21,318 nucleotides of DNA. Source: Minisyncoccota bacterium. Its GTDB lineage: Bacteria > Patescibacteriota > Minisyncoccia > Phycocordibacterales > UBA12079. Positions 765 through 15,729 of the stretch are shown here, piece after piece. How positions within the stretch are numbered: the first letter of the stretch is position 1; each line of letters begins with the position of its first letter. The position numbers and the translations under genes were made by a program. Below the pieces are notes generated by a model that did not search any database, had not been told where the DNA came from, and was given only the letters and a program-made list of their open reading frames with translations. The stretch covers positions 1-21,318 of the forward strand of contig JAGMBS010000007.1 in assembly GCA_023129575.1 (NCBI GenBank), written 5' to 3'.

Positions 765-788
765 AACGGCTCAACTCGTTGAGCCGTT
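765..788. repeat. perfect 24-nt palindrome AACGGCTCAAC-TC-GTTGAGCCGTT, a member of the CTCAAC-NN-GTTGAG family
   Basis: Self-complementary. A near-identical copy lies at 8762-8785 and a related copy at 6181-6202. Confidence 0.6.
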
Positions 789-4077: not shown

Positions 4078-4150
4078 GCGCGTGTAGCTCAGCTGGTAGA
4101 GCGCTACACTGATAATGTAGAGGTCTCTGGTTCAAATCCAGGCACGCGCA
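4078..4150 (+). tRNA. tRNA-Ile(GAT)
   Basis: Acceptor GCGCGTG/CACGCGC, D-arm GCTC-AGCTGGTA-GAGC, anticodon arm CTACA-CTGATAA-TGTAG (anticodon GAT), T-arm CTGG-TTCAAAT-CCAG, discriminator A, no encoded CCA. Confidence 0.9.
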
Positions 4151-4188
4151 CAACAATTCTTTCTACCAAAAAAATAGTTGAGTATATT

Positions 4189-4893
4189 TTACTGACAGCA
4201 ATACCATTTCCAACCGCTCTGATGGCAACCCGCGTTATAGGCCTCGCTTTGCGAGCGATAACAATGGCCATTACAATGGTATTTTGCGTAAGACGGACAG
4301 CAGCCGCTATTTACCCAACAATAACCCGGCGAACAGTGCCGGCACCCTATGCTGACCTGACTACCTCCGCCGCCAGAAGCGCTACTTTTACCGCTAAAGG
4401 TTTGATAAATGGATTGGCACATCCTATCTTCGGTATTTGGATATTTTCCGGTGGCGCAATGATAACTGTAAAGAACTAAGTATCCCACAAACGCAATAAC
4501 AACTATCTCGATAATTAAAGCAATAATTGAATGTTTGCGAACCTTAGAAAATTCGTCTGTGGGGGCTTGCTCGGGAGTCGGCGGTATTGGTTGTTGTTCC
4601 TCTGGCGCGACCGGCTGATTGGCATACTTGGCGAGTTTAGTATCATTCTCCAGATGCCAAACGCCAAACATAATATAAAGAAAAGTGCTCCAAGCTATAC
4701 TTACGATTAAATAATACAAGATTAGTCCTATCGCGATATAAGTAATATCTCTCTTGAATATATCAAAGTCAAAATTGTCGCTTACAAGCAAAAAAAATGC
4801 GGCCAAAACGACTAAAGATGGAATTATCCAAAGAATTATTTTTGCGACCCTGTACCACCGTTTTTGTTCTATTTGTGATTTTTTCATAGACAT
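4189..4893 (-). CDS. hypothetical membrane protein (3 predicted TM helices) with a Cys-rich C-terminal domain
   Basis: 234-aa ORF. Hydrophobic helices at residues ~18-40, ~52-75 and ~125-150. The last ~70 residues carry 14 Cys (CRHCSPGYCWVNSGCCPSYAKYHCNGHCY...GCHQSGWKWYCCQ). A Pro/Glu-rich linker is present. Confidence 0.6.
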   Translation of the reverse strand: MSMKKSQIEQKRWYRVAKIILWIIPSLVVLAAFFLLVSDNFDFDIFKRDITYIAIGLILYYLIVSIAWSTFLYIMFGVWHLENDTKLAKYANQPVAPEEQQPIPPTPEQAPTDEFSKVRKHSIIALIIEIVVIAFVGYLVLYSYHCATGKYPNTEDRMCQSIYQTFSGKSSASGGGGSQVSIGCRHCSPGYCWVNSGCCPSYAKYHCNGHCYRSQSEAYNAGCHQSGWKWYCCQ

Positions 4894-4975
4894 AATTTTT
4901 AACTATAAACTATTTTCTGTATAATATAATAATTTAACTTGAAAGAAAAGTAAATATGTTGAAAAAATCACAAAT

Positions 4976-5014
4976 AGACAAAAACCCCGCGAAACTTCGT
5001 TTTGCGGGGTTTTT
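4976..5014. terminator. bidirectional rho-independent terminator
   Basis: An A-run precedes stem CCCCGCGAAAC / GTTTTGCGGGG (loop TTC), followed by a T-run; U-runs are available on both strands. Confidence 0.65.
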
Positions 5015-5020
5015 TAAGCC

Positions 5021-5096
5021 AAATGAGCCAAATACACCATTTGGCTCATTCGGCTCTTTTAAAAAATCTCAAAAATCATCCGATTTTTGAGATTTT
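5021..5096 (-). terminator. two further tandem hairpins after the stop of the 5096..5914 gene: an 11-bp perfect stem AATGAGCCAAA/TTTGGCTCATT, and TCTCAAAAATC/GATTTTTGAGA with flanking T/A runs
   Basis: Both stems are perfect. The second directly abuts the stop codon at 5096 and is followed on the minus strand by TTTTTT. Confidence 0.5.
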
Positions 5097-5914
5097 TATT
5101 GTTTTTTGGTGTAACGGACACCTTTGCCTATATTTCCGATTTGAGTTATTTTTTGTTCTTTTTCTAAAATATCTAAATACCGAACAGCGCTTCTGCGAGC
5201 AGTCCTTAATAATTTTCGGACATCCGAGTTTGAAAGCTCTGTTTTTGTTTCAAAAAGCGACATAATTTTATCCAATTTTTTCCTTTTCCTCTCCTGAATT
5301 TTCGCCCGCGCTTTAATCAACAATTTTTGAACAAAATTAGCCGTGCCCGTCGGAGTGTCAGCGACGATTAGGGGATCAGTTTTATAAATGATTTTTTCAA
5401 CCATTTTAATCTCTGGTTGTGACGAAATTTCTTGAGTTTGCTTGTCCTCCGTAGCTTTCCTGTCCTTTGTAGCTTCAGCGGAGGAGGAAGCAATGGCGGG
5501 CTCAACTTTTGAAATTTCAGCGGAAGCAGATTCAACTTTTGGAATTTCAACAGGCGGTAAATTTTCCGCCTGCGGTATTTCCTCAACTTTTTGCTCTTGT
5601 TCTTGTTCAGCCGATTTCATCGCTTCAGTTTCAGTTTGCAAAATTTCTTCAACCTGTTCATTTTCAATTTTTTCTTCCGCGACATTCTCAACAACTTCCG
5701 ATTTCTCAACAAGAGGATTTTTTGGCTCCGCCAAAAAATCCTCCCCCAAAACTTCTTCATTTTTCTCAACCGCTAAATTTTCAGTTTGTCCGTCATTCTC
5801 CGCAACTTCGGCAACCTCGGCAACAGGTTCAACCACTTCCAATTCCGGCAGAACCGAAACAGGATTTTCTTCCGTTATCTTATTTTCCAAATTTTGATTT
5901 TCTTTTGGTGGCAT
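5096..5914 (-). CDS. acidic low-complexity protein with a C-terminal DeoR-like winged helix-turn-helix
   Basis: The N-terminal ~200 aa are E/V/P/A-rich repeats (EVAEVAEVAEN, PVEIPKVESASAEISKVEP). The C-terminus ...NSDVRKLLRTARRSAVRYLDILEKEQKITQIGNIGKGVRYTKK fits the DeoR-type HTH pattern (xxTxRRDLxxLExxGxlxRxxGg). It is a paralog of the C-terminus of 6217..6534. Confidence 0.6.
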   Translation of the reverse strand: MPPKENQNLENKITEENPVSVLPELEVVEPVAEVAEVAENDGQTENLAVEKNEEVLGEDFLAEPKNPLVEKSEVVENVAEEKIENEQVEEILQTETEAMKSAEQEQEQKVEEIPQAENLPPVEIPKVESASAEISKVEPAIASSSAEATKDRKATEDKQTQEISSQPEIKMVEKIIYKTDPLIVADTPTGTANFVQKLLIKARAKIQERKRKKLDKIMSLFETKTELSNSDVRKLLRTARRSAVRYLDILEKEQKITQIGNIGKGVRYTKKQ

Positions 5915-6180
5915 AGTTTAGTTTCCAATGTTTGTTATTGTTTGTTTTAATTCATTAAATTGTTCTTGGTTCATATAAATTTTACTGTTGTTTCTCAACA
6001 CTTCATAGCTAAAAAACCTGATATTCCAATTGCCCAAATTGCTATCCTTTTTGCTTCCTTTGTTAATCTAAATCCATTTTTCTAGTCGTCAGTTTTTTGC
6101 GAAGTCTGTCTTTCCCAAAATTAATCGTTTCTATGTATATATCTTTTTCTTCTATATTTTCCATATTTTTAATTTTTTAA

Positions 6181-6202
6181 TTAACTCAACCCGTTGAGTT
6201 AA
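6181..6202. repeat. perfect 22-nt palindrome TTAACTCAAC-CC-GTTGAGTTAA (CTCAAC-NN-GTTGAG family)
   Basis: Self-complementary. Lies 15 nt downstream of the stop of the 6217..6534 gene, at the promoter-distal end of the R-M cassette. Confidence 0.5.
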
Positions 6203-6216
6203 TCATTCAAAAATTA

Positions 6217-6534
6217 TTATTGCAAGGTATAAAATACATTTGTTCCGATTTTGCCGTGCTGGGTTAATTTTCCGTTTTTTTCCAATTCATCCAAATATCT
6301 TTCCGCGGTAGCGTGCGAAACCCCGCACAATTTCTCAACATCATTATTCGTTATTTTCGGCATCGGTTCCGCATTTTGTCCGCGTCCATTCCGCATTAGA
6401 TTCAAAATCTTTTCTTTATTTTCCCTTTTCTTTTTACTTTGCCCAAAAATCAAACACTTTTTCTTTTTGGAACCAAAATAACCCCCAATAATAATTCCTA
6501 CTATTCCAACTAAAATTAAAACTAAACAGTTCAT
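6217..6534 (-). CDS. membrane-anchored winged-HTH protein (N-terminal TM helix plus C-terminal DeoR-like HTH), 105 aa
   Basis: N-terminus MNCLVLILVGIVGIIIGGYFG is a TM helix followed by a KKKK stop-transfer. The C-terminus ...ITNNDVEKLCGVSHATAERYLDELEKNGKLTQHGKIGTNVFYTLQ is a DeoR-like wHTH. The start lies 6 nt after the methyltransferase stop on the same strand. Confidence 0.6.
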   Translation of the reverse strand: MNCLVLILVGIVGIIIGGYFGSKKKKCLIFGQSKKKRENKEKILNLMRNGRGQNAEPMPKITNNDVEKLCGVSHATAERYLDELEKNGKLTQHGKIGTNVFYTLQ

Positions 6535-6540
6535 ATTTTT

Positions 6541-7653
6541 TTATTTCTCCATTAAAAATAAATATTCGTGATATTTACTGTCATCAGCAATCCAATCATT
6601 TGTCCAACACATATTTGCCATAACATTTTTTTTATAATCTATCTCAACAATTTTTAACAATTTTCCTGATTCGTTGATTATATCGCTCAATTCTTGTTTC
6701 GTGGCTCTGCCGCCGGAACTATATGATAATAAAATATAACGAGCGTCTATTTCTTGAATTAATTTATGCAATGCTTTCATCGCAAGAAATTTTTTGTCTT
6801 TATCTTTTCTAAATTCTTCAAACACAGAAGCAGAAATTTTATCCCTGCTATCTATCCGGCGATTTACTTTTCCAAACACAGTTGGTTTGTCGTGTTTAAT
6901 AATTGTGGTCCAAATATGATAATAGGAAGTATACCTCACACGGCTTGGCGGCATCTTTTCATTATTTGAACCATACGGAGGATCTAAATAAACAAAATCA
7001 AATTTATTTTTTGACACGGTATTAAAAATATCATCACAAATTATTCTATGTCCGCCATTGTGATCAAAACGATTAGGTAACTTCAAAAATAAGTTATTGT
7101 AAGAACGAGGAGACCACTGCGATAAATATGATACATAATGCCCAAGAGTGCTATCAACCGAATCAAGCGCATAGATTAAACTTGTTAAAATTACACACTT
7201 ATCTTCCCATTGTAAATTTAATTTTTCGACTTCCTTCCTAATAGCGTCCAATTTTCGAGTGTTTTTTGCTTGAAATGGCCGTTTTGTTCCTGTCAATTCC
7301 GCTCCATAATGTTCGGTGTACCAACCATCATATCCCTCTAAATTATTTAGATGATTTATTATTTTTTGATAAAAACCGTCTGTTTTTTTTGATTTCAAAT
7401 AACAAGTCGCAAAAACCTCTGACCAAATTGCAATATCATTTGAAGTTGTGTCATATCCTAATTGAGCAAACGCTTGAGATACTCGCGTAGAACCGCTAAA
7501 TCCATCCAGCACATTTTTGATTCCGTCCAACCCACTCATTATATCAATAATGTACGGCAAAATTTTGAGTTTTGAACCGGCATATTTTATACCCTCTGTT
7601 TGTGGAATTATTGGAATAGGCGTGTTAAAAATATTTAATTGCTCAGTAATCAT
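6541..7653 (-). CDS. DNA N6-adenine methyltransferase, D12/Dam-like (alpha) class
   Basis: KYAGSKLKILPYI matches the Dam KWAGGKxxLL motif. DGFSGSTRV is an FxGxG-like AdoMet motif. FVYLDPPYGSN is the DPPY catalytic motif IV. The start overlaps the stop of the upstream ORF by 4 nt. Confidence 0.85.
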   Translation of the reverse strand: MITEQLNIFNTPIPIIPQTEGIKYAGSKLKILPYIIDIMSGLDGIKNVLDGFSGSTRVSQAFAQLGYDTTSNDIAIWSEVFATCYLKSKKTDGFYQKIINHLNNLEGYDGWYTEHYGAELTGTKRPFQAKNTRKLDAIRKEVEKLNLQWEDKCVILTSLIYALDSVDSTLGHYVSYLSQWSPRSYNNLFLKLPNRFDHNGGHRIICDDIFNTVSKNKFDFVYLDPPYGSNNEKMPPSRVRYTSYYHIWTTIIKHDKPTVFGKVNRRIDSRDKISASVFEEFRKDKDKKFLAMKALHKLIQEIDARYILLSYSSGGRATKQELSDIINESGKLLKIVEIDYKKNVMANMCWTNDWIADDSKYHEYLFLMEK

Positions 7654-8513
7654 AATGTTTTTAAATGATCAATATCTTTTTGCAAAATATCATTTGCCAA
7701 TTTGTGTCCTTGTCTGGTGCTATTTAACGCTAGACCGAATAATCGGACAAGGGTGTGATTGTGAGAATAATCTATCCATCCGTTTGTTAATGAATCAAAA
7801 TAAAATTTGGCTTTCTGAGTATGTGTCCACAAACCCCGTTGCAAAGCATTCGCGGAAGCCCCACCGTATCGAACTTCACAAATATAATTACCGTCCGAAT
7901 CAATAAACATAAATATCGGGTGTTTTCTTCCTTTTCTTTTTATGACACTTTGCTTTGAAAAATCAAATTTTTTATTTTTACCAACAAAAATAATCCGTTG
8001 AGTTTTTCGTATCGCTTTTTTGTGGTCAAAAATCATTATATTGCATCTCTGATTTTTTTCATCATAAATAAGCGGCATAATATTGATTGCGTTAAAATCC
8101 TCAAATTCTTTCGCCTTAAAAATTTGCCCGATTTGTTTTTTGTCCTTTATATCTCGGCCTTGCAATACAAGAAATGGAAATAATTTTTGACGGCTATCTG
8201 TTGAAAGTTGAAGAGGGCCATCACCGTACGCCTTTAAACTCACGGGAAATTCCGCTTTTGTTATTTCGTTTATAATTACAATATCTTCCTCGTGTTCTTT
8301 CGCTCGAAATTTATCTTTACCGACATGCATACTTCTAAAGTCATACATAAATTGATTGATAAATTCAACCATGCCAATTTCCGCCAAATCGCCATGTGTT
8401 TTATTCCCGATCAAACGCATAGTAAAAATGTTGGAAAGTGTATTAATTACCAAATGTTTTTGTTTTCCAACTAATAACTTAAATCTTGTTTTAAAATCTT
8501 TGTATGTTGCCAT
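7650..8513 (-). CDS. putative type II restriction endonuclease partner of the Dam-like methyltransferase; family not recognised
   Basis: 287-aa ORF translationally coupled to the methyltransferase by a 4-nt overlap. No similarity to any known family was recognised by eye, including the DpnII/MboI family. The role is assigned by gene context only. Confidence 0.45.
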   Translation of the reverse strand: MATYKDFKTRFKLLVGKQKHLVINTLSNIFTMRLIGNKTHGDLAEIGMVEFINQFMYDFRSMHVGKDKFRAKEHEEDIVIINEITKAEFPVSLKAYGDGPLQLSTDSRQKLFPFLVLQGRDIKDKKQIGQIFKAKEFEDFNAINIMPLIYDEKNQRCNIMIFDHKKAIRKTQRIIFVGKNKKFDFSKQSVIKRKGRKHPIFMFIDSDGNYICEVRYGGASANALQRGLWTHTQKAKFYFDSLTNGWIDYSHNHTLVRLFGLALNSTRQGHKLANDILQKDIDHLKTL

Positions 8514-8761
8514 AATTATTTAATTAAATTTTAAATCTTTATTTTCCTCTTTTTCAACTTCATCAATTTCTTCAATATCATCACGGTCAATATCCAATGC
8601 CTCCGCTATTGTCTCAAAAAACATTCCTTGTTCTCTCAATTCCTCGCAAGTTTCGGATAAGCATTTAATTTGAATTGTTATTTTATCCACAATTTTTAAT
8701 TAAAAAAATGATTAAATCTTTAACAAAGTTGATAATAGTATAGCATATTTTTAATTTCACC

Positions 8762-8785
8762 AACGGCTCAACTCGTTGAGCTGTT
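8762..8785. repeat. near-perfect 24-nt palindrome AACGGCTCAAC-TC-GTTGAGCTGTT, a copy of the 765-788 element
   Basis: 23 of 24 positions identical to 765-788. Lies about 250 nt upstream of the R gene. Confidence 0.55.
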
Positions 8786-8819
8786 GGGCAAAAGGTTCGC
8801 GCAAAGCGCGCAATCTCAT

Positions 8820-8869
8820 CACAACGATTTTCCCAAATAGCTCAATCGCTATTTGGGAAAATCGTTGTG
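8820..8869. repeat. perfect 22-bp inverted repeat with a 6-nt loop (CACAACGATTTTCCCAAATAGC tcaatc GCTATTTGGGAAAATCGTTGTG)
   Basis: Exact reverse-complement arms. No U-run on either side, so not a classical terminator. Preceded by a GCGC-aaa-GCGC mini-hairpin at 8799-8809. Confidence 0.6.
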
Positions 8870-8996
8870 GGTAACCTCATGCTGGAACCATATTTTGTTA
8901 AGTCCAGTAAGGTTATTTTTAATAGATTTATTTTATCACTTCGAAGGTCCTCGTGCACCTTTTCTTTTTTAGTTTTGACTTAAGACATGTAAATTA

Positions 8997-9611
8997 CTAG
9001 TCGATTTTAATTTCGTGTATCCATGTGTTGTTAGGCGAAATTGTTGAGTAAACAAAGGTTCTATGCTCTGTTTCATCTTCAGTGTTAGTTTTGTAGTAAA
9101 TTGGCAGGGCTAATGGGAATGATAAAATGTTTTCATTAAATTTTTTAAAATTATCAGCAATTTCTTCTTCTGTTAATTCGCCCATCCTCACTTTAAGGAC
9201 TATAAAAAATGTTTCTCCGCTTGCTAAAGCGATGGTGCCTAGTGATTTTTTATACTCAATTTTTTTCAAATCTTGAAATTGGTCTGTTCTTCCTGAAAGA
9301 GAAACACCATCCGGCATTCTTATTTCTTTGGCTGGTTGCCCACCATAATTCTTAAGCTCAAATTGAAACTCTAAAATCAGCTCTGTTTCCTGTGACTCAA
9401 TCCTTAAGTAGTTGCCTGTTTCTGAAAATTTTACAGACCGTGCCGATATATAAGGACGATTTTCTAACTCAAAGTTTTGTTGTGAAGCGGCAAAAGCATC
9501 ATTTGCAATTGTATTGCTTTTCCGAGATTCAACATAACTAAACCCTGATATAATCAAAGCGATTAAAGAAATTACTATTGGAATCCAAATTATATTTTTT
9601 TTTAATAACAT
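8997..9611 (-). CDS. hypothetical protein with N-terminal TM anchor (204 aa)
   Basis: Continuous ORF with hydrophobic helix IIWIPIVISLIALIISGF near the N-terminus. No recognised domain. Confidence 0.55.
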   Translation of the reverse strand: MLLKKNIIWIPIVISLIALIISGFSYVESRKSNTIANDAFAASQQNFELENRPYISARSVKFSETGNYLRIESQETELILEFQFELKNYGGQPAKEIRMPDGVSLSGRTDQFQDLKKIEYKKSLGTIALASGETFFIVLKVRMGELTEEEIADNFKKFNENILSFPLALPIYYKTNTEDETEHRTFVYSTISPNNTWIHEIKID

Positions 9612-9656
9612 TTTAATCTATTTAATACAAATAATTATAACGGGACCTCTAAAATG

Positions 9657-9743
9657 CGGAGAGGACAGGATTCGAACCTGCGGTGGAATTTCTTCCACAC
9701 TCGCTTTCCAAGCGAGCGCCTTCGACCGCTCAGCCACCTCTCC
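9657..9743 (-). tRNA. tRNA-Ser(GGA)
   Basis: The reverse complement reads GGAGAGG-TG-GCTGAGCGGTCGAAGGC-G-CTCGC-TTGGAAA-GCGAG followed by the long variable arm GTGGAAGAAATTCCAC, then GCAGG-TTCGAATC-CTGTC-CTCTCC-G. Anticodon is GGA. The type II variable arm fits Ser. Confidence 0.9.
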
Positions 9744-9797
9744 GTTTATATTTTAATTGTGTAACAAATTTTTTAAAATTTTCAAATTCTATTTTAA

Positions 9798-9886
9798 TTC
9801 CACCGCGGTCGAACGAGTTCGTCCACCTTTGCTTTGCTACGGATGAATGCTCCCAAGGTCTCATTCATCCGCTCAGCCACCTCTCC
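9798..9886 (-). pseudogene. degenerate tandem copy of tRNA-Ser: intact 5' 18 nt, then a hairpin in place of the D-loop 3' part and anticodon arm, then a decayed 3' half
   Basis: GGAGAGGTGGCTGAGCGG is identical to nt 1-18 of the functional gene. It is followed by hairpin GGATGAATG-(12 nt)-CATTCATCC at 9841-9870. The downstream GTGGACGAAC..CGTTCGACC is a degenerate variable/T-arm. Confidence 0.45.
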
Positions 9887-9904
9887 AATATATTTCGCTC
9901 AAAG

Positions 9905-10023
9905 ATCTCATATTATCGCCGCTTCCTTTCAGTCAGCGAACGGTGGCTTCGCGTTCGCCACATCCGCTTCGCTCCTGATAAAATATGAAGCAGTTCATAT
10001 TTTATCCACTCAGCCACCTCTCC
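9905..10023 (-). pseudogene. second degenerate tRNA-Ser copy, carrying a hairpin with the GAAGCAGTTC loop in place of the anticodon region
   Basis: The 5' end GGAGAGGTGGCTGAGTGG matches 17 of 18 positions. Hairpin GATAAAATATGAA-GCAG-TTCATATTTTATC at 9977-10006 has a 13-bp perfect stem. A downstream segment GTGGCGAACGCGAAGCCAC-C-GTTCGCTGAC is a degenerate variable arm and T-arm. Confidence 0.45.
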
Positions 10024-10049
10024 AAAATTATTTTAATTTATTCCATATT

Positions 10050-10694
10050 TTAATCTTTATAAAAACTTTCATTAAAAACAACCACGGTATTTTTGTCTAA
10101 TTCTTTTTTAGCTTTATACATCGCTTTGTCCGCTTTATCAATCAATTTTTCAATATCACATTTTTTGTCGTGTTTGGAACAATACTCCGTCATATCAACA
10201 ACGCCAAAACTGGCGCTTAATTTTTGACCCCCCGCTTTTAATAATTGGAGTTTTTTTCTTATATTTTCCACAATGTTCGTTGCCATTGCAATATCCACTC
10301 CCAGCAACCCTATTACAAATTCGTCTCCGCCCCATCTTGCCACAATATCAAATTTTCTGACAGAGGACTTAAATAATTGAGCCGCTTTGACTAATGCTTG
10401 ATCGCCAACTTCGTGGCCGTTTGTATCGTTTATTTTTTTCAAATCATCAAGATCAATAAAAATTAAGGCAAAATCTTCAAAAATTATTTTTCTTTTTTCT
10501 TGTCTTTCTTTTCGATTGGCAATTTCTTCCAATACTTTATCTATTTCCATTAAAAATCCCCTCCGATTATAAAGCGAAGTTAAAACATCGCAATTCGCCA
10601 CCGAGCAAAGTTTTTTAATTTCTTCATTTTTCTCCCTTATCTTCTTTTCCAGAAGATTAATTTTTTCTTCTAATTGTTTAGTTGTGTCTTTCAT
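10050..10694 (-). CDS. GGDEF-domain protein (putative diguanylate cyclase) with N-terminal coiled coil
   Basis: Canonical motifs LYNRRGF...DLKKINDTNGHEVGD...RWGGDEF. The ATG at 10694 (MKDTTKQ) is preferred over the TTG-initiated extension to 10748, which overlaps htpX. Confidence 0.8.
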   Translation of the reverse strand: MKDTTKQLEEKINLLEKKIREKNEEIKKLCSVANCDVLTSLYNRRGFLMEIDKVLEEIANRKERQEKRKIIFEDFALIFIDLDDLKKINDTNGHEVGDQALVKAAQLFKSSVRKFDIVARWGGDEFVIGLLGVDIAMATNIVENIRKKLQLLKAGGQKLSASFGVVDMTEYCSKHDKKCDIEKLIDKADKAMYKAKKELDKNTVVVFNESFYKD

Positions 10695-11619: not shown

Positions 11620-11714
11620 CCCGTTAGAGATAAATTGTTTTTGACAAACAAATTATCTTTTAAATTAAATTAATTAATAATATACTTTTTTTTAAACCCC
11701 GAATCTCTAACGGG
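11620..11714. repeat. MITE-like element bounded by a 13-bp inverted repeat, TCCCGTTAGAGAT ... ATCTCTAACGGGA
   Basis: The arms at 11619-11631 and 11703-11715 are perfect. The ~70-nt AT-rich interior holds a TTGACA hexamer. A related inverted-repeat pair lies at 12915-12959. Confidence 0.45.
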
Positions 11715-11716
11715 AT

Positions 11717-12310
11717 TCATTGTTTTTTAAAAAGTGTTTTTTCTTCTTTTTTTAATAACTTAATCAACTCGTCAAAATATATTTTGACCTCGGGAGACAC
11801 GGCCACTTTATCTTTTTTGCAATCAATTAACATTTGCAAAGTTACACCTTCTTGTTTAAAAGTTTTACCATTATCTGTATATACATTTAAAATTGGTTGT
11901 ATTTTATCGAGAGAATAAATAAATCTGCTTTCTTTATTTATTTTAGTTTCATAATCCTTTATAATTTTATGCAATTCAGGAAATTCAGGAAATTCTCTTT
12001 TTAATTGTCGCATTGCTTTTTTCTCTCTTTCTTCTTTACTGTTTATTTCTTTTGTATCAGTAGAATAAATATAAGTATCCCCGGCGTAAACCTCAACTAA
12101 ATCATGAATCAAGGCATATTTGAGTATTAATTCATGATTTAAATCAAGTTTTTGCGAATTTACAATATACAAAGCCAGCATCGCAAGCTGATAACTATGT
12201 TCGGTGTCATTTTCATATCTATCCTCTCCGTTTACAAGCACCCTGCGTTGTACCTGCCTAAATTTATTTAAAAGCTCCGTAAATTTTAAAATTTTTGATA
12301 AGTTCAACAT
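11717..12310 (-). CDS. HD-domain phosphohydrolase (YfbR-like 5'-nucleotidase family)
   Basis: H...HD...D metal-binding pattern: ENDTEHSYQLAMLALYI and LIHDLVEVYAGD. 197 aa. ATG at 12310. Confidence 0.75.
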   Translation of the reverse strand: MLNLSKILKFTELLNKFRQVQRRVLVNGEDRYENDTEHSYQLAMLALYIVNSQKLDLNHELILKYALIHDLVEVYAGDTYIYSTDTKEINSKEEREKKAMRQLKREFPEFPELHKIIKDYETKINKESRFIYSLDKIQPILNVYTDNGKTFKQEGVTLQMLIDCKKDKVAVSPEVKIYFDELIKLLKKEEKTLFKKQ

Positions 12311-12373
12311 AATTCAACACAAATTCTCGCTTGCCCGTCCGCCCAAGGCGGATTAGGGCTTTGCTCAAATTTG

Positions 12374-12455
12374 TGCCGGAGAGAGGACTTGAACCTCCAT
12401 GGATTGCTCCACTAGTTCCTAAGACTAGCGCGTCTACCAATTTCGCCACTCCGGC
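12374..12455 (-). tRNA. tRNA-Leu(TAG)
   Basis: Reverse complement: GCCGGAG-TG-GCGAAATTGGTAGACGC-G-CTAGT-CTTAGGA-ACTAG, long variable arm TGGAGCAATCCATGGA, GGTTCAAGTCC, CTCTCCGGC, A. Anticodon TAG; type II tRNA. Confidence 0.9.
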
Positions 12456-13034: not shown

Positions 13035-14177
13035 ATGGAAAATCAAAATCAGGACAGGAAAAAGGAACTCCAGCACAAATTGGAGGAGGCAAAGAGAGAA
13101 CGAAACAAGAAACAAAAAGCGGAAAAACTTCGGCTCAGATTGGAGTTGGCAGAAATGAAAAAGAAGGCGAGAAAAAAGGAAAAGGAGGAGAAAAAAGAAA
13201 AGAAACATTGGTGGACTTCTGATATTACAAAACAATTGTCCTCTTTTGTTGTCGGGTTTTTCTTTAACTGGATTATTGGAGGATGGACCGCAAGTTTGGT
13301 AAAAAACTGGTCTGCTCAATATGTAGCCCCAGGTTATGACACGGTTATCTACTGGATTGCGTTTGCTATTTTTGTAATTTATTTCGGCTATTATGGAATT
13401 GGAAAATTGAAAGAGTTTTGGAATGGCGTGCCTACCATATTGGGGCGACCAATTTCATGGTACATAATTCCCAGCGGGTTATTTTGGCAATTGCCATGGC
13501 CTTGGATGGGGTTTATGCCTGTGTTCATAGGGCAACGAGATTTAGATATTAAACCGGACAAAACTTTGTCGCGAGATAATATTGAAATAGGCATAGACGC
13601 TCAAATTCAAGCGAGGGTTACGGAGCCTTACAAGCACGCCAGCGTGGAAAATCCGGACGAAGCACTCAAAACACTCTCCAAAAGAAATATTCGTATCCTT
13701 GTAAACACGAAAGGATATAGAGCCATGCCCGGACAGAAACAACAATTTTCTAGAAATTTAGAACAGGGGGTGCCGGAACTGCCTATATTTGATGATGACG
13801 GCAATCCAGCCGGGACGGAAGAACTAAAATCAGTCAAGGAAGAAGCGGCGATGTGGGGATATAAAGATGGCATTGATAAATGCATGATCAACAATATTAC
13901 CTTGCCGGAAGAACTTCTAAAGGAAATTATCAAAGAGGAGAAAGAACAAATTCAGACAAGGTATGAACAAGTCCAACATGATTTGTTTCTTGTTTTGCTT
14001 GGAGCGGGAGATATTAATGAGGGTAGAGAAGCTTTTTTGAAAATGATTCCCGAGGAACGAGCGAAAAATATTCAGGCGGAACGAGACAAAAGAACGGTCA
14101 TTACCATTGACGGCAATGCCGGTGATTTCACAAAAGGTGGAGTTGGTGCAGCCGCAATGAAAGGAGGCGGAAAATGA
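13035..14177 (+). CDS. SPFH/band-7 (stomatin/prohibitin-like) membrane protein with a K/E-rich coiled-coil N-terminus
   Basis: Strong RBS AAAGGAGGA 6 nt before the ATG. The N-terminal 57 aa are highly charged. Hydrophobic segments follow. The SPFH core (...GVPTILGRPISWYIIPSGLFWQLPW...IDAQIQARVTEPYKHASVENPDEALKTLSKRNIRILVNTKGY) matches the band-7 pattern. Confidence 0.7.
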   Translation: MENQNQDRKKELQHKLEEAKRERNKKQKAEKLRLRLELAEMKKKARKKEKEEKKEKKHWWTSDITKQLSSFVVGFFFNWIIGGWTASLVKNWSAQYVAPGYDTVIYWIAFAIFVIYFGYYGIGKLKEFWNGVPTILGRPISWYIIPSGLFWQLPWPWMGFMPVFIGQRDLDIKPDKTLSRDNIEIGIDAQIQARVTEPYKHASVENPDEALKTLSKRNIRILVNTKGYRAMPGQKQQFSRNLEQGVPELPIFDDDGNPAGTEELKSVKEEAAMWGYKDGIDKCMINNITLPEELLKEIIKEEKEQIQTRYEQVQHDLFLVLLGAGDINEGREAFLKMIPEERAKNIQAERDKRTVITIDGNAGDFTKGGVGAAAMKGGGK

Positions 14178-14902: not shown

Positions 14903-15277
14903 CTAAACTCCAGTCCCTAAACTCGTGATTGTTCCGCTTATGACAGTTGACAATAATTGCGCTCCCAGTAACACAATTATTCCAATTATTGTCCACATTA
15001 AAGTATTTCTGGCTTCTTTTAATTTTTCGGGGTTGCCGCGCGCCTTCACAAAAAGAAAACCGCTATAAATAATCGCTAAAATAGCAAGTGGGGCGGCTAT
15101 TATTATTATAACGCCCAAAATACTATTTATTAATTGGCTAATTGTGTTAACTCCGCCGCTTCCTCCCAGCGGGTTATTTAATTGCGTGATTTGTCCGTCC
15201 GCGCCGAGAAATTCAAATGGCAGAAATAAAATTCCTAAAATAATTAGATATTGAACTTTATTGAAAAATTTTTGCAT
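14903..15277 (-). CDS. TrbC/VirB2-like pilin-family small membrane protein (signal peptide plus 2 TM helices)
   Basis: 124 aa. Signal-like N-terminus MQKFFNKVQYLIILGILFLPFEFLGA. Two hydrophobic helices separated by FVKARGNPEKLKEA. It is a paralog of the adjacent gene. Confidence 0.5.
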   Translation of the reverse strand: MQKFFNKVQYLIILGILFLPFEFLGADGQITQLNNPLGGSGGVNTISQLINSILGVIIIIAAPLAILAIIYSGFLFVKARGNPEKLKEARNTLMWTIIGIIVLLGAQLLSTVISGTITSLGTGV

Positions 15278-15305
15278 ATAATTAATTATATTAAATTTCT
15301 AAAAT

Positions 15306-15716
15306 TTATTGAAGATTTAACAATCCGGAACTTTCGGCGCCGAGACCGAGAAGAACGGCTTTGACTATCAGCCAGGCGCCGACGACAAAAAACAATCCAA
15401 AGGCGACATTTTTAAATATTTTATGCGCGGTTTTTATTTTACCCGGATCGCCCTGGGCCGACAAATACAAAAAACCGGCGTAAGCGAACATCGCGGTGGC
15501 AATCGGCGCGGCGAGATAAAGGGCAAAGTCAATGAGATTGCCCACTCCCCTTACAAGAGCGTTAAAATCGCATTTATTTTGCCAGGCATTATTGACCCAT
15601 TTCGGATTGCAAGGGATAAGGGGATCGTTTGGATTATACATTGCTTGAACAAAAGACGGCAAAGTTAAAGAAAACAGAATTATTAGGTATTTTATTTTGT
15701 TAGAATATTTTTTCAT
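15306..15716 (-). CDS. TrbC/VirB2-like pilin-family small membrane protein (paralog)
   Basis: ATG at 15716 (MKKYSNKIKYLIILFSLTLPSFVQA signal peptide); the track start at 15725 is TTG. Same architecture as 14903..15277: ...AAPIATAMFAYAGFLYLSAQGDPGKIKTA... plus a C-terminal TM helix. Confidence 0.5.
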   Translation of the reverse strand: MKKYSNKIKYLIILFSLTLPSFVQAMYNPNDPLIPCNPKWVNNAWQNKCDFNALVRGVGNLIDFALYLAAPIATAMFAYAGFLYLSAQGDPGKIKTAHKIFKNVAFGLFFVVGAWLIVKAVLLGLGAESSGLLNLQ

Positions 15717-15729
15717 TTTTTTCAAATAA

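What the first reader, a model, noticed from the sequence alone, without database searches (positions are those of the whole stretch)
4151..9656. AT-rich accessory block bounded by tRNA-Ile and tRNA-Ser, carrying an R-M system, wHTH proteins and a Cys-rich membrane protein
Genes between the two tRNAs (4189-9611) are markedly more AT-rich than the flanking core genes gyrA, prfB and rpsB. They have no housekeeping identity. The block contains the Cys-rich membrane protein, two wHTH paralogs, the R-M pair and a membrane-anchored hypothetical. It abuts the 3' end of tRNA-Ser, a classic island integration site. Three consecutive terminator hairpins at 4976-5096 and the palindromes at 6181 and 8762 punctuate it. 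No integrase gene was seen, so this may be an old, fixed island.
Basis: partly seen in the sequence, partly recalled or inferred. Interest (0 to 1): 0.55.

Follow-up and report, generated by a model that had tools for sequence, protein, structure and literature searches.

The report
tRNA-framed accessory block with SspI-type R-M
In this uncultured Pacebacteria (CPR) genome, a 5.5-kb stretch lying exactly between two conserved tRNA genes carries genes that no sampled relative has at that site, including a horizontally spread SspI-type restriction-modification pair; it is a fairly ordinary patchwork variable region, not a classical integrase-borne island.

Summary
The features are real. tRNA-Ile(gat) 4078-4151 (+) and tRNA-Ser(gga) 9656-9743 (-) both point their 3' ends at a block of minus-strand genes:
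- a Cys-rich membrane protein
- an acidic wHTH protein
- a TM-wHTH paralog
- a D12 adenine methyltransferase
- an SspI-family endonuclease
- a membrane-anchored ORFan

The hairpins and palindromes are present, and there is no integrase.

The block is AT-rich (34.3% vs 40.5% GC; GC3 p=0.002) but unevenly. Its first two genes have host-like GC. GGDEF and HD, outside the block, are as AT-rich as the core at 5915-9655.

Four related genomes (RF2 75-81% identical) share the scaffold M48 / tRNA-Ser ... (tRNA-Ile) / prfB-rpsB-tsf; three also keep tRNA-Leu and tRNA-Ile. Each holds different cargo between the tRNAs. All five relatives examined carry ribonucleotide reductase genes just upstream of prfB, and these are absent from the window. 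Nucleotide homology stops at the two tRNA 3' ends. No empty site, att repeat or integrase was found.

Only the overlapping R→M pair is demonstrably mobile. It is 71-80% identical in unrelated phyla, in unrelated contexts, and 6-10 GC points below each host.

Verdict: an accessory, composite variable region. "Old fixed island" is partly supported. Interest is low to moderate.

The parts
4078..4151 (+). tRNA-Ile(gat); conserved scaffold gene whose 3' end forms the left border of the block
   Evidence: ARAGORN and Rfam at 74 bits. Orthologous to tRNA-Ile next to prfB in L169, L170, L171 and L174. Nucleotide homology to relatives ends at 4152-4162.
4189..4893 (-). Membrane protein (232-234 aa) with a Cys-rich C-terminal domain. 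Layout: N-terminal TM region, Pro/Gln linker, TM helix, then about 12 Cys. GC is host-like (42%).
   Evidence: Sequence. No Pfam, NCBIfam, PHROG or PADLOC hit. Belongs to a small uncharacterised family: 53 representatives at E<=1e-3 among 1.84 billion (alignment). The best homolog (56% identity) sits in an unrelated context, L178. GC.
4982..5097 (-). Three consecutive hairpins between the acidic wHTH gene and the Cys-rich gene, terminator-like. The GC-rich hairpin at 4982-5010 is followed by a T-run on the minus strand.
   Evidence: (I22, I25). The 4979-5014 hairpin recurs at 92% identity elsewhere in relative L172.
5096..5914 (-). 272-aa protein with an acidic, low-complexity N-terminal part and a C-terminal winged-HTH domain. 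GC 39%.
   Evidence: Sequence. Paralogous to the 105-aa wHTH protein. Weak match to the phrog_2391 DNA-binding family.
6063..6164 (-). 33-aa ORF called by the source annotation; doubtful gene
   Evidence: Gene call in L001. No family hit.
6178..6199 (.). Palindrome TTAACTCAAC-GG-GTTGAGTTAA (core 6185-6198) just downstream of the wHTH105 stop. It is followed at fixed spacing by AAATTAAAAATATG.
   Evidence: A 37-nt match to the 8767 copy (76% identity, E=0.005).
6217..6534 (-). 105-aa protein with an N-terminal TM helix and a winged-HTH domain (DUF977-like). Its start codon lies 6 nt after the MTase stop, so it is probably co-transcribed with the R-M pair.
   Evidence: Pfam DUF977 E=1.6e-5 and HTH_24. 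PHROG DNA-binding and Ren-like families. Weak relatives on viral contigs. Absent next to the R-M cassette in other genomes.
6541..7653 (-). Type II N6-adenine DNA methyltransferase (D12 class). Motif I (FSGS) lies near residue 50 and DPPY near residue 224.
   Evidence: Pfam PF02086 E=2e-20. PADLOC MTase_II PDLC03342 E=6e-141. 71-78% identical to the MTase paired with the REase homolog in other phyla.
7650..8513 (-). Type II restriction endonuclease of the SspI family. Overlaps the MTase start by 4 nt (ATGA).
   Evidence: PADLOC REase_II PDLC03568 E=3.6e-106. 3876 homologs found, the best 120 at 75-86% identity across many phyla, two of them named SspI by UniRef. Junction sequence.
8520..8690 (-). 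56-aa acidic ORF with a GTG start, 6 nt upstream of the REase; doubtful gene, not part of the conserved cassette
   Evidence: Not similar to the ORF upstream of the REase in L164.
8762..8869 (.). Hairpin cluster between hyp204 and the R-M operon. It comprises palindrome CCAACAGCTCAAC-GA-GTTGAGCCGTTGG (core 8767-8780), a small GC hairpin near 8800-8815, and a perfect 22-nt-arm inverted repeat at 8820-8869.
   Evidence: (I2).
8997..9611 (-). 204-aa ORFan with an N-terminal TM helix and a predicted beta-rich domain. AT-rich (33% GC).
   Evidence: The only match among 5.8 billion proteins is itself. No family hit apart from a weak phrog_9607 match at E=0.002. The AlphaFold model is unreliable, pLDDT 41.8.
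9656..9743 (-). tRNA-Ser(gga); conserved scaffold gene whose 3' end forms the right border of the block
   Evidence: Orthologs lie between M48 and prfB in L171, L172 and L174. Homology to relatives is limited to the tRNA itself.

Best explanation
The interval between tRNA-Ser(gga) and tRNA-Ile(gat) is a variable, cargo-swapping locus in this Pacebacteria lineage. It is not a single integrase-borne island. The surrounding scaffold is tRNA-Leu(tag) – M48 – (GGDEF) – tRNA-Ser ... tRNA-Ile – prfB – rpsB – tsf – tRNA-Thr, and it is inherited vertically.

In this genome the cargo is a composite of at least three transcription units.

1. A membrane-anchored ORFan (hyp204).
2. An operon of orf56?–REase–MTase–TM-wHTH. 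Its core is a two-gene SspI-family Type IIP R-M cassette acquired horizontally. The MTase presumably methylates adenine in AATATT and the REase cuts unmethylated AATATT, giving defence against phage and foreign DNA plus the selfish persistence typical of R-M pairs.
3. An acidic wHTH protein and a Cys-rich membrane protein. Their host-like GC suggests they are older or native.

Shown:
- the block borders and the scaffold orthology
- the absence of the cargo from relatives
- the family identity of the R-M pair and its horizontal spread
- the absence of integrase and att repeats

Inferred:
- The cargo arrived piecemeal, or by recombination anchored on the conserved flanking tRNA and core genes.
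- It displaced an ancestral segment containing ribonucleotide reductase genes.
- The recognition site is AATATT.
- The downstream TM-wHTH protein and the repeated CTCAACGNGTTGAG palindromes take part in regulation.
For: - **Scaffold and cargo.** L171, L172 and L174 share M48, tRNA-Ser(gga) and prfB-rpsB(-tsf) with the window; L171 and L174 also share tRNA-Leu(tag) and tRNA-Ile(gat), which were not detected in L172. Each holds different genes between the tRNAs: HTH/SSF/RNR-II/TrpR in L171, TetR/patatin/NrdD/NrdG in L172, and 221aa/RNR-II/ThrRS/DUF1653 in L174.
- **Further relatives.** L169 and L170 have RNR-II – tRNA-Ile – prfB.
- **Borders.** blastn homology ends at the two tRNA 3' ends.
- **Cargo absent elsewhere.** No block protein is found in the relatives' loci.
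- **Mobile R-M pair.** The R→M pair alone recurs at 71-80% aa identity after fusA in Moranbacteria, after obg in Parcubacteria and beside pyrF in Anaerohalosphaeraceae. It also occurs at 54% identity on a 210-kb viral contig. RF2 of the nearest distinct relative is only 81-82% identical.
- **Cassette composition.** The cassette is 6-10 GC points below host flanks in each of the three other host contexts examined and about 7 points below in the window.
- **R-M family assignment.** PADLOC REase_II and MTase_II give full-length matches.
- **Composite GC.** Shown.
- **No island machinery.** No integrase and no att repeats.
- **Assembly.** The gene order is confirmed by a second deposited assembly (L175, 99.98%), and the 4714-6482 part by a contig from another sample (L176).
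Against: - The nearest distinct relatives are distant (RF2 72-82%). Intermediate states are missing, so neither the number nor the order of acquisition events can be reconstructed.
- The two-sided tRNA border with both 3' ends facing inward is what a decayed tRNA-targeting island would also leave.
- hyp204 is an ORFan and the Cys-rich gene has host-like GC. Their 'acquired' status rests only on absence from distant relatives.
- AATATT is not depleted in the window (17 observed, 20±4 expected).
- The recognition specificity is inferred from family naming only.
Confidence: 0.65

Rival explanations
1. A classical genomic island integrated site-specifically at the 3' end of tRNA-Ser (or tRNA-Ile) by a tyrosine or serine integrase. 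It is now old and fixed, having lost its integrase and att sites.
For: - The block abuts the 3' ends of both tRNAs.
- Part of it is AT-rich.
- Its content is absent from relatives.
- The wHTH paralogs resemble phage DNA-binding families.
- Two fragments of the tRNA-Ser 5' end lie just upstream of tRNA-Ser and could be fossils of recombination at this tRNA.
Against: - There is no integrase or recombinase, and no room for a remnant.
- No repeat of either tRNA's 3' end occurs in the window.
- The tRNA fragments are 5' pieces on the far side of tRNA-Ser, not at a block border.
- No relative shows an empty site.
- GC is composite.
- The R-M cassette moves on its own, without these neighbours, in other genomes.
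Confidence: 0.12
2. Apart from the R-M cassette, the block is not foreign. It consists of fast-evolving, lineage-native genes for membrane proteins and regulators that ended up here through ordinary genome rearrangement. Their AT-richness reflects weak constraint or gene-specific composition.
For: - GGDEF is syntenic with M48 in L174 yet as AT-rich as the block. It is also the most AT-rich gene of its neighbourhood in L174.
- The Cys-rich and acidic wHTH genes have host-like GC.
- The GC-rich terminator hairpin at 4979-5014 recurs in relative L172.
- Upstream of prfB, gene order varies among all relatives.
- hyp204 has no homolog anywhere, so there is no identifiable donor.
Against: - Homology breaks fall exactly at the two tRNA ends.
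- All five relatives keep RNR genes at this site, while this genome has six unrelated genes there.
- A second AT-rich gene (HD) is inserted exactly at the 3' end of tRNA-Leu, which suggests recurrent insertion next to tRNAs.
- The Cys-rich family is patchy, and its closest homolog lies in an unrelated context.
Confidence: 0.2
3. An assembly or binning chimera joined unrelated DNA at the tRNAs.
For: tRNAs and repeats are common assembly break points. In L172 a scaffold gap follows tRNA-Ser.
Against: A second deposited assembly (L175; 15.1 kb, 99.98% identical) shows the same order across both borders. A contig from a different sample (L176) spans 4714-6482. The ENA scaffold is 106 kb.
Confidence: 0.02

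Closest known systems
SspI restriction-modification system (Type IIP, AATATT; Sphaerotilus)
   Same: The REase matches the PADLOC Type II REase profile end to end (E=3.6e-106). It belongs to a protein family whose members some sources name SspI. It is paired with an overlapping D12-class N6-adenine MTase, and the pair is conserved in all other genomes examined.
   Different: Identity to the biochemically characterised R.SspI and M.SspI was not measured directly. Specificity and activity are untested. Here a TM-wHTH gene is appended 6 nt downstream of the MTase, which is not seen in the other copies.
tRNA-associated genomic islands and islets (integrase-mediated, att = tRNA 3' end)
   Same: It sits at the 3' ends of tRNA genes, is partly deviant in composition, carries accessory and defence cargo, and is absent from relatives.
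   Different: It has no integrase and no att direct repeats. It is bounded by two different intact tRNAs, and relatives show no empty site. The cargo is composite.
Chromosomal hotspots or regions of genome plasticity between conserved core genes (concept from comparative genomics; my own knowledge, not searched here)
   Same: The flanks are conserved while the cargo differs in every genome. tRNA genes sit at the borders, a defence system is among the cargo, and no dedicated recombinase is present.
   Different: This is shown here for only four or five distant CPR genomes. In the relatives the cargo includes housekeeping genes (RNR, ThrRS), so rearrangement and hotspot behaviour cannot be separated.
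R-M gene pairs as autonomous mobile units (simple insertion, or insertion with target duplication; Kobayashi and co-workers; my own knowledge)
   Same: A minimal two-gene unit is found in unrelated contexts across phyla and is AT-richer than each host. In the window it is flanked by a 37-nt imperfect direct repeat: the palindrome plus AAATTAAAAATATG.
   Different: The repeat encloses orf56 and wHTH105 as well as the R-M pair. A third copy lies outside the block at 770, so it may be an ordinary intergenic element rather than a target duplication.

Membership tests
Type II restriction-modification system (SspI family) | Endonuclease homologous to a Type II REase family | tested here: met
   PADLOC REase_II PDLC03568 E=3.6e-106, covering residues 2-285 against profile positions 4-274 of 281. 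Homologs are named SspI by UniRef. There is no Pfam, NCBIfam or PDB sequence hit.
Type II restriction-modification system (SspI family) | Adjacent cognate DNA methyltransferase with AdoMet-binding and DPPY catalytic motifs | tested here: met
   Pfam MethyltransfD12 E=2e-20. PADLOC MTase_II E=6e-141. FSGS and DPPY are visible in the sequence. The genes overlap by 4 nt.
Type II restriction-modification system (SspI family) | R and M genes inherited together as a pair | tested here: met
   The same R→M arrangement appears in L162-L168 and on viral contig L177.
Type II restriction-modification system (SspI family) | Cleavage and methylation at AATATT | not testable with these tools
   This rests only on the family name. 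AATATT shows no depletion in the window (17 observed, 20±4 expected), which is uninformative.
Integrase-mediated tRNA-linked genomic island | Integrase or recombinase gene at one end | tested here: not met
   No integrase, transposase or recombinase family was found in any block protein. Non-coding gaps are at most 483 nt.
Integrase-mediated tRNA-linked genomic island | Direct repeat of the tRNA 3' end (attL/attR) at the far border | tested here: not met
   No 16-mer from the 3' half of either tRNA (up to 2 mismatches) recurs in the block; the only extra copies are the 5' fragments of tRNA-Ser at 9864-9891 and 10001-10028, outside the block, plus one isolated anticodon-stem-like 16-mer at 4243-4258 judged to be chance.
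Integrase-mediated tRNA-linked genomic island | Adjacent to the 3' end of a tRNA gene | tested here: met
   Both tRNA-Ser and tRNA-Ile have their 3' ends facing the block. Homology breakpoints fall at those ends.
Integrase-mediated tRNA-linked genomic island | Present or absent as a unit relative to an empty site in related genomes | tested here: inconclusive
   The cargo is absent from five relatives, but the site is always occupied by other genes. The only near-identical genomes are the same strain.
Integrase-mediated tRNA-linked genomic island | Uniformly deviant base composition | tested here: not met
   GC by gene runs 42%, 39%, 35%, 33%, 33%, 33% across the block. GGDEF and HD outside the block are as AT-rich.
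C-protein-controlled R-M system | Small Xre-type HTH controller gene upstream of the REase, with C-box operators | tested here: not met
   orf56 has no HTH family hit. The only HTH is a DUF977-like wHTH downstream of the MTase, and it is absent from other copies of the cassette.
Multi-system defence island | Several recognised defence systems clustered together | tested here: not met
   PADLOC recognises only the R-M pair. The wHTH hits are generic domain matches.

The most novel reading that the evidence does not exclude
In these small CPR genomes, conserved tRNA genes may act as integrase-free anchors for wholesale cargo replacement.

- **Replacement at two sites.** The tRNA-Ser...tRNA-Ile interval, which holds ribonucleotide reductase genes in all five sampled relatives, was replaced here by an R-M-centred block. 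A YfbR-like HD nucleotidase gene was inserted exactly at the 3' end of tRNA-Leu.
- **Possible footprints.** The tandem 5' fragments of tRNA-Ser could record repeated recombination at this tRNA.
- **Possible regulation.** The membrane-anchored wHTH fused to the R-M operon, together with the CTCAACGNGTTGAG palindromes that precede both wHTH units, could form a previously undescribed control circuit for the acquired R-M system.
- **Possible function.** The RNR-for-restriction swap would fit the proposal that CPR bacteria use restriction enzymes to scavenge nucleotides (Burstein et al. 2016, PMC4742961).
Probability: 0.12. Interest if true: 0.5.

Novelty: new member of a known kind. Interest (0 to 1): 0.27.

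Why it matters
The value is mostly for annotation.
- It assigns the SspI family and a likely function to a pair deposited as 'hypothetical protein' plus 'DNA adenine methylase'.
- It shows this cassette to be one of the more widely exchanged Type II systems among CPR and other uncultured phyla.
- It documents a tRNA-framed variable locus in Pacebacteria.
- It gives a caution for scans: in this genome AT-richness does not separate foreign genes from native ones.

If the tRNA-anchored replacement idea held up, it would bear on how integrase-poor, streamlined CPR genomes exchange accessory genes.

Tried and rejected
1. **prfB-anchored scans.** Scans of GTDB species representatives and JGI metagenomes gave best matches of only 65-67% identity with no shared neighbours, so they were useless for synteny.
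2. **Near-identical contigs.** L175 and L176, reached through 90% clusters, turned out to be the same strain (99.98% and 99.3% nt) and added only assembly support.
3. **att search.** Only the tRNA-Ser 5' fragments outside the block turned up.
4. **AATATT avoidance.** None was found.
5. **Split-gene idea.** I tested whether orf56 and wHTH105 are halves of an acidic-wHTH paralog split by the R-M insertion. orf56 shows no similarity to the acidic N-terminus, so the idea was rejected.
6. **orf56 as part of the cassette.** The ORF upstream of the REase in L164 is an unrelated membrane peptide.
7. **Phage or plasmid origin.** tblastn of the REase, wHTH105 and hyp204 against INPHARED phages, and of the REase against PLSDB plasmids, found nothing. 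IMG/VR gave one 54% R-M pair and only generic wHTH matches. The palindrome is absent from IMG/VR.
8. **hyp204.** There is no homolog in 5.8 billion proteins. The single-sequence AlphaFold model has pLDDT 41.8 and is unusable, so no fold search was run.
9. **tRNA-like repeats.** They are not tRNAs by ARAGORN or by Rfam even at E<=10, and they are absent from relatives.
10. **PDB sequence search with the REase.** It returned nothing meaningful.

Full report
**Source and layout**

The window is a contig of a Candidatus Pacebacteria (Patescibacteria/CPR) metagenome-assembled genome. The same DNA lies on a 106-kb ENA scaffold (L001), and the proteins carry NCBI names from 'Candidatus Pacebacteria bacterium'.

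ARAGORN and Rfam agree on four tRNAs:

| tRNA | Coordinates | Strand |
|---|---|---|
| Thr(tgt) | 1021-1094 | - |
| Ile(gat) | 4078-4151 | + |
| Ser(gga) | 9656-9743 | - |
| Leu(tag) | 12373-12455 | - |

tRNA-Ile and tRNA-Ser therefore both point their 3' ends into the interval 4152-9655.

**Checking the observation**

All genes in the interval are on the minus strand:
- a 232-234-aa membrane protein with about 12 cysteines in its C-terminal 90 residues (4189-4893)
- a 272-aa protein with an acidic low-complexity N-terminus and a C-terminal winged HTH (5096-5914)
- a 105-aa TM + wHTH protein (6217-6534)
- a D12-class adenine methyltransferase (6541-7653)
- a 287-aa protein (7650-8513)
- a 204-aa membrane-anchored protein (8997-9611)
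- two doubtful small ORFs (6063-6164 and 8520-8690)

Further checks:
- The two wHTH proteins are paralogs (BLASTP E=1e-11, 38% over 82 aa).
- The 287-aa protein has no Pfam, NCBIfam or PDB sequence match. It matches the PADLOC Type II REase profile PDLC03568 end to end (E=3.6e-106), and the MTase matches MTase_II PDLC03342 (E=6e-141).
- Homologs of the 287-aa protein are named SspI by UniRef.
- The REase stop overlaps the MTase start in ATGA.
- Three consecutive hairpins lie at 4982-5010, 5017-5055 and 5062-5097.
- The two palindromes are at 6178-6199 and 8762-8789.
- No integrase-like protein exists, and the largest non-coding gap is 483 nt.

**Composition**

The block is 34.3% GC against 40.5% for the rest of the window. 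The GC3 of its seven ORFs is lower than that of 20 non-block genes (median 0.28 vs 0.42, Mann-Whitney p=0.002). The signal is not uniform, however.

| Gene or segment | GC | GC3 |
|---|---|---|
| Cys-rich gene (in block) | 42% | 0.41 |
| Acidic wHTH gene (in block) | 39% | – |
| AT-rich core 5915-9655 (in block) | 32.2% | – |
| GGDEF 10050-10694 (outside) | 32% | 0.29 |
| HD 11717-12310 (outside) | 28.5% | 0.24 |

- The AT-rich core is also the lowest-GC 3.7-kb stretch in the 24.8 kb available.
- GGDEF is syntenic with M48 in relative L174 and is also the most AT-rich gene of its neighbourhood there. Part of the GC heterogeneity is therefore gene-intrinsic.
- Several relatives are much more AT-rich overall (29-31% GC). 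The closest one (L172) resembles the window (36-41%).
- AT-richness is real but is weak evidence for foreign origin.

**Synteny test**

- prfB-anchored scans of GTDB representatives and JGI metagenomes found only 58-67% relatives with no shared neighbours.
- A search of the 5.8-billion-protein collection with RF2 found a cluster of relatives at 72-82% identity. I fetched five of their contigs.
- Downstream of prfB the order is conserved: prfB-rpsB-tsf-hypothetical-tRNA-Thr(tgt)-ParB-TGT.

Upstream, four genomes share a scaffold with the window but differ in what lies between tRNA-Ser and tRNA-Ile/prfB:

| Genome | Order upstream of prfB |
|---|---|
| L174 | tRNA-Leu(tag)-M48-GGDEF-127aa-tRNA-Ser(gga)-[221aa, RNR-II, ThrRS, DUF1653]-tRNA-Ile(gat)-prfB |
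| L171 | tRNA-Leu(tag)-M48-126aa-tRNA-Ser(gga)-[HTH, SSF, RNR-II, TrpR]-tRNA-Ile-157aa-prfB |
| L172 (closest, 81%) | M48-tRNA-Ser(gga)-[TetR, 39aa, patatin, NrdD, NrdG]-prfB |
| Window | tRNA-Leu(tag)-HD-M48-GGDEF-tRNA-Ser(gga)-[block]-tRNA-Ile(gat)-prfB |

- L169 and L170 have RNR-II-tRNA-Ile-prfB.
- No block protein has a homolog in any of these loci (phmmer, E<0.01).
- blastn homology to the relatives ends at window 4152-4162 on one side and 9653-9655 on the other, at the two tRNA 3' ends.
- The tRNAs themselves are orthologous, with compensatory changes.

Three conclusions follow.
1. The block's content is specific to this genome among sampled relatives.
2. Its borders are exactly the two tRNAs.
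3. There is no 'empty site'. The interval is a cargo-swapping locus, and all five relatives carry ribonucleotide reductase genes there that this window lacks.

The only closer genomes are the same strain: L175 is 99.98% identical over 15.1 kb, and L176 from another sample spans 4714-6482. They confirm the assembly but not the history.

**What is demonstrably mobile**

- The REase has 3876 homologs. The best 120 are 75-86% identical and come from Parcubacteria, Moranbacteria, Sungbacteria, Berkelbacteria, Ignavibacteria, Planctomycetota, Deltaproteobacteria and Gammaproteobacteria. The housekeeping RF2 of the nearest distinct relative is only 81-82% identical.
- In three other hosts the same overlapping R→M pair (REase 77-80%, MTase 71-78%) sits in unrelated housekeeping contexts: after fusA, after obg and beside pyrF. 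None has the window's neighbours, a tRNA or an integrase.
- A 54% identical pair is on a 210-kb IMG/VR viral contig.
- In each of these three other host contexts the cassette is 6-10 GC points below its flanks.
- The mobile unit is therefore the two genes at 6541-8513. The wHTH105 gene, 6 nt downstream, and orf56, 6 nt upstream, are local additions.
- AATATT is not depleted in the window (17 observed, 20±4 expected).

**The other genes**

- hyp204 is an ORFan with no match in 5.8 billion proteins. Its AlphaFold model is unusable at pLDDT 41.8.
- The Cys-rich protein belongs to a small uncharacterised family of 53 representatives. Members share an N-terminal MPIKKSxLEQKWYYRIAKV motif, TM helices, a GLEDDTKKK motif and variable Cys-rich ends. 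The closest homolog (56%) sits in an unrelated context, and one member is labelled DPANN.
- The wHTH domains resemble DUF977 and phage DNA-binding families weakly.
- PADLOC recognises no defence system other than the R-M pair.

**Island hallmarks**

- No att-like repeat of either tRNA's 3' end exists.
- The palindromes at 6185 and 8767 are copies of one motif, CTCAACG[AG]GTTGAG. A third copy lies at 770, outside the block (3 sites found, 0.19 expected).
- The 8767 and 6185 copies are each followed, after 9 nt, by AAATTAAAAATATG. Together they bracket orf56-R-M-wHTH105.
- This could be a duplicated terminator/promoter module, an operator for the wHTH paralogs, or a trace of insertion with target duplication. 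The evidence does not decide.

**Conclusion**

- The best reading (about 0.65) is a composite accessory segment in a tRNA-framed variable locus. Its one clearly foreign and functional module is an SspI-family Type II R-M cassette.
- The 'single old integrase island' reading keeps about 0.12.
- 'Mostly native fast-evolving genes plus rearrangement' keeps about 0.2.
- This is a new member of known kinds: a Type II R-M pair and a genomic islet or hotspot. R-M systems are already known to be common in CPR genomes (Burstein et al. 2016, PMC4742961).
- Interest is low to moderate.

Noticed in passing
window 9744-10049 (minus strand; copies at 9864-9891 and 10001-10028): Two extra copies of the first ~22 nt of tRNA-Ser (GGAGAGGTGGCTGAGCGG...), each with ~10 similar upstream bases, lie in tandem 143 and 137 nt upstream of the real tRNA-Ser. 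Each is followed by a long hairpin. Neither ARAGORN nor Rfam (E<=10) calls them tRNA, and relatives lack them. They may be fossil recombination sites, pseudo-tRNAs or tRNA-derived sRNAs.
   Followed up: partly
window 11620-12370 (HD gene 11717-12310): A YfbR-like HD-domain gene (28.5% GC, the most AT-rich gene in the window) is inserted exactly between the 3' end of tRNA-Leu(tag) and M48. These two are directly adjacent in relatives L171 and L174. It is a second accessory insertion next to a tRNA, outside the reported block.
   Followed up: partly
window 770-783, 6185-6198, 8767-8780: The palindrome CTCAACG[AG]GTTGAG occurs three times (0.19 expected). Each copy has extended stems and an ATG 23-24 nt downstream on the minus strand. 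It is absent from all fetched relatives and from IMG/VR. It may be a genome-specific intergenic element or an operator.
   Followed up: partly
L169-L174, upstream of prfB: All five related genomes carry ribonucleotide reductase genes (class II RNR and/or NrdD-NrdG) immediately upstream of tRNA-Ile/prfB. The window has none in 21 kb. I could not check whether this genome has RNR elsewhere.
   Followed up: no
window 4979-5014 and L172 825-864: The GC-rich terminator hairpin (AAAAAACCCCGCAAAACGAAGTTTCGCGGGGTTTTT) inside the block recurs at 92% identity at an unrelated position in the closest relative. This suggests a lineage-wide terminator element.
   Followed up: no
whole window versus L169, L171, L174: Core genes here have GC3 of 0.40-0.47, against 0.10-0.20 for their orthologs in three relatives (RF2 75-80% identical). 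The closest relative, L172, is intermediate to similar. This indicates a strong, recent shift in base composition within the clade.
   Followed up: no
window 14903-15725 and 13035-14177: Two tandem T4SS-pilin-like genes (PF18895) lie next to a Band_7/SPFH protein with a highly charged N-terminus. I did not examine them.
   Followed up: no
L177 (IMGVR_UViG_3300029288_004137, 210 kb): A jumbo-sized viral contig (27.6% GC) carries a 54% identical copy of the same REase-MTase pair, so it is a possible vector for the cassette.
   Followed up: partly
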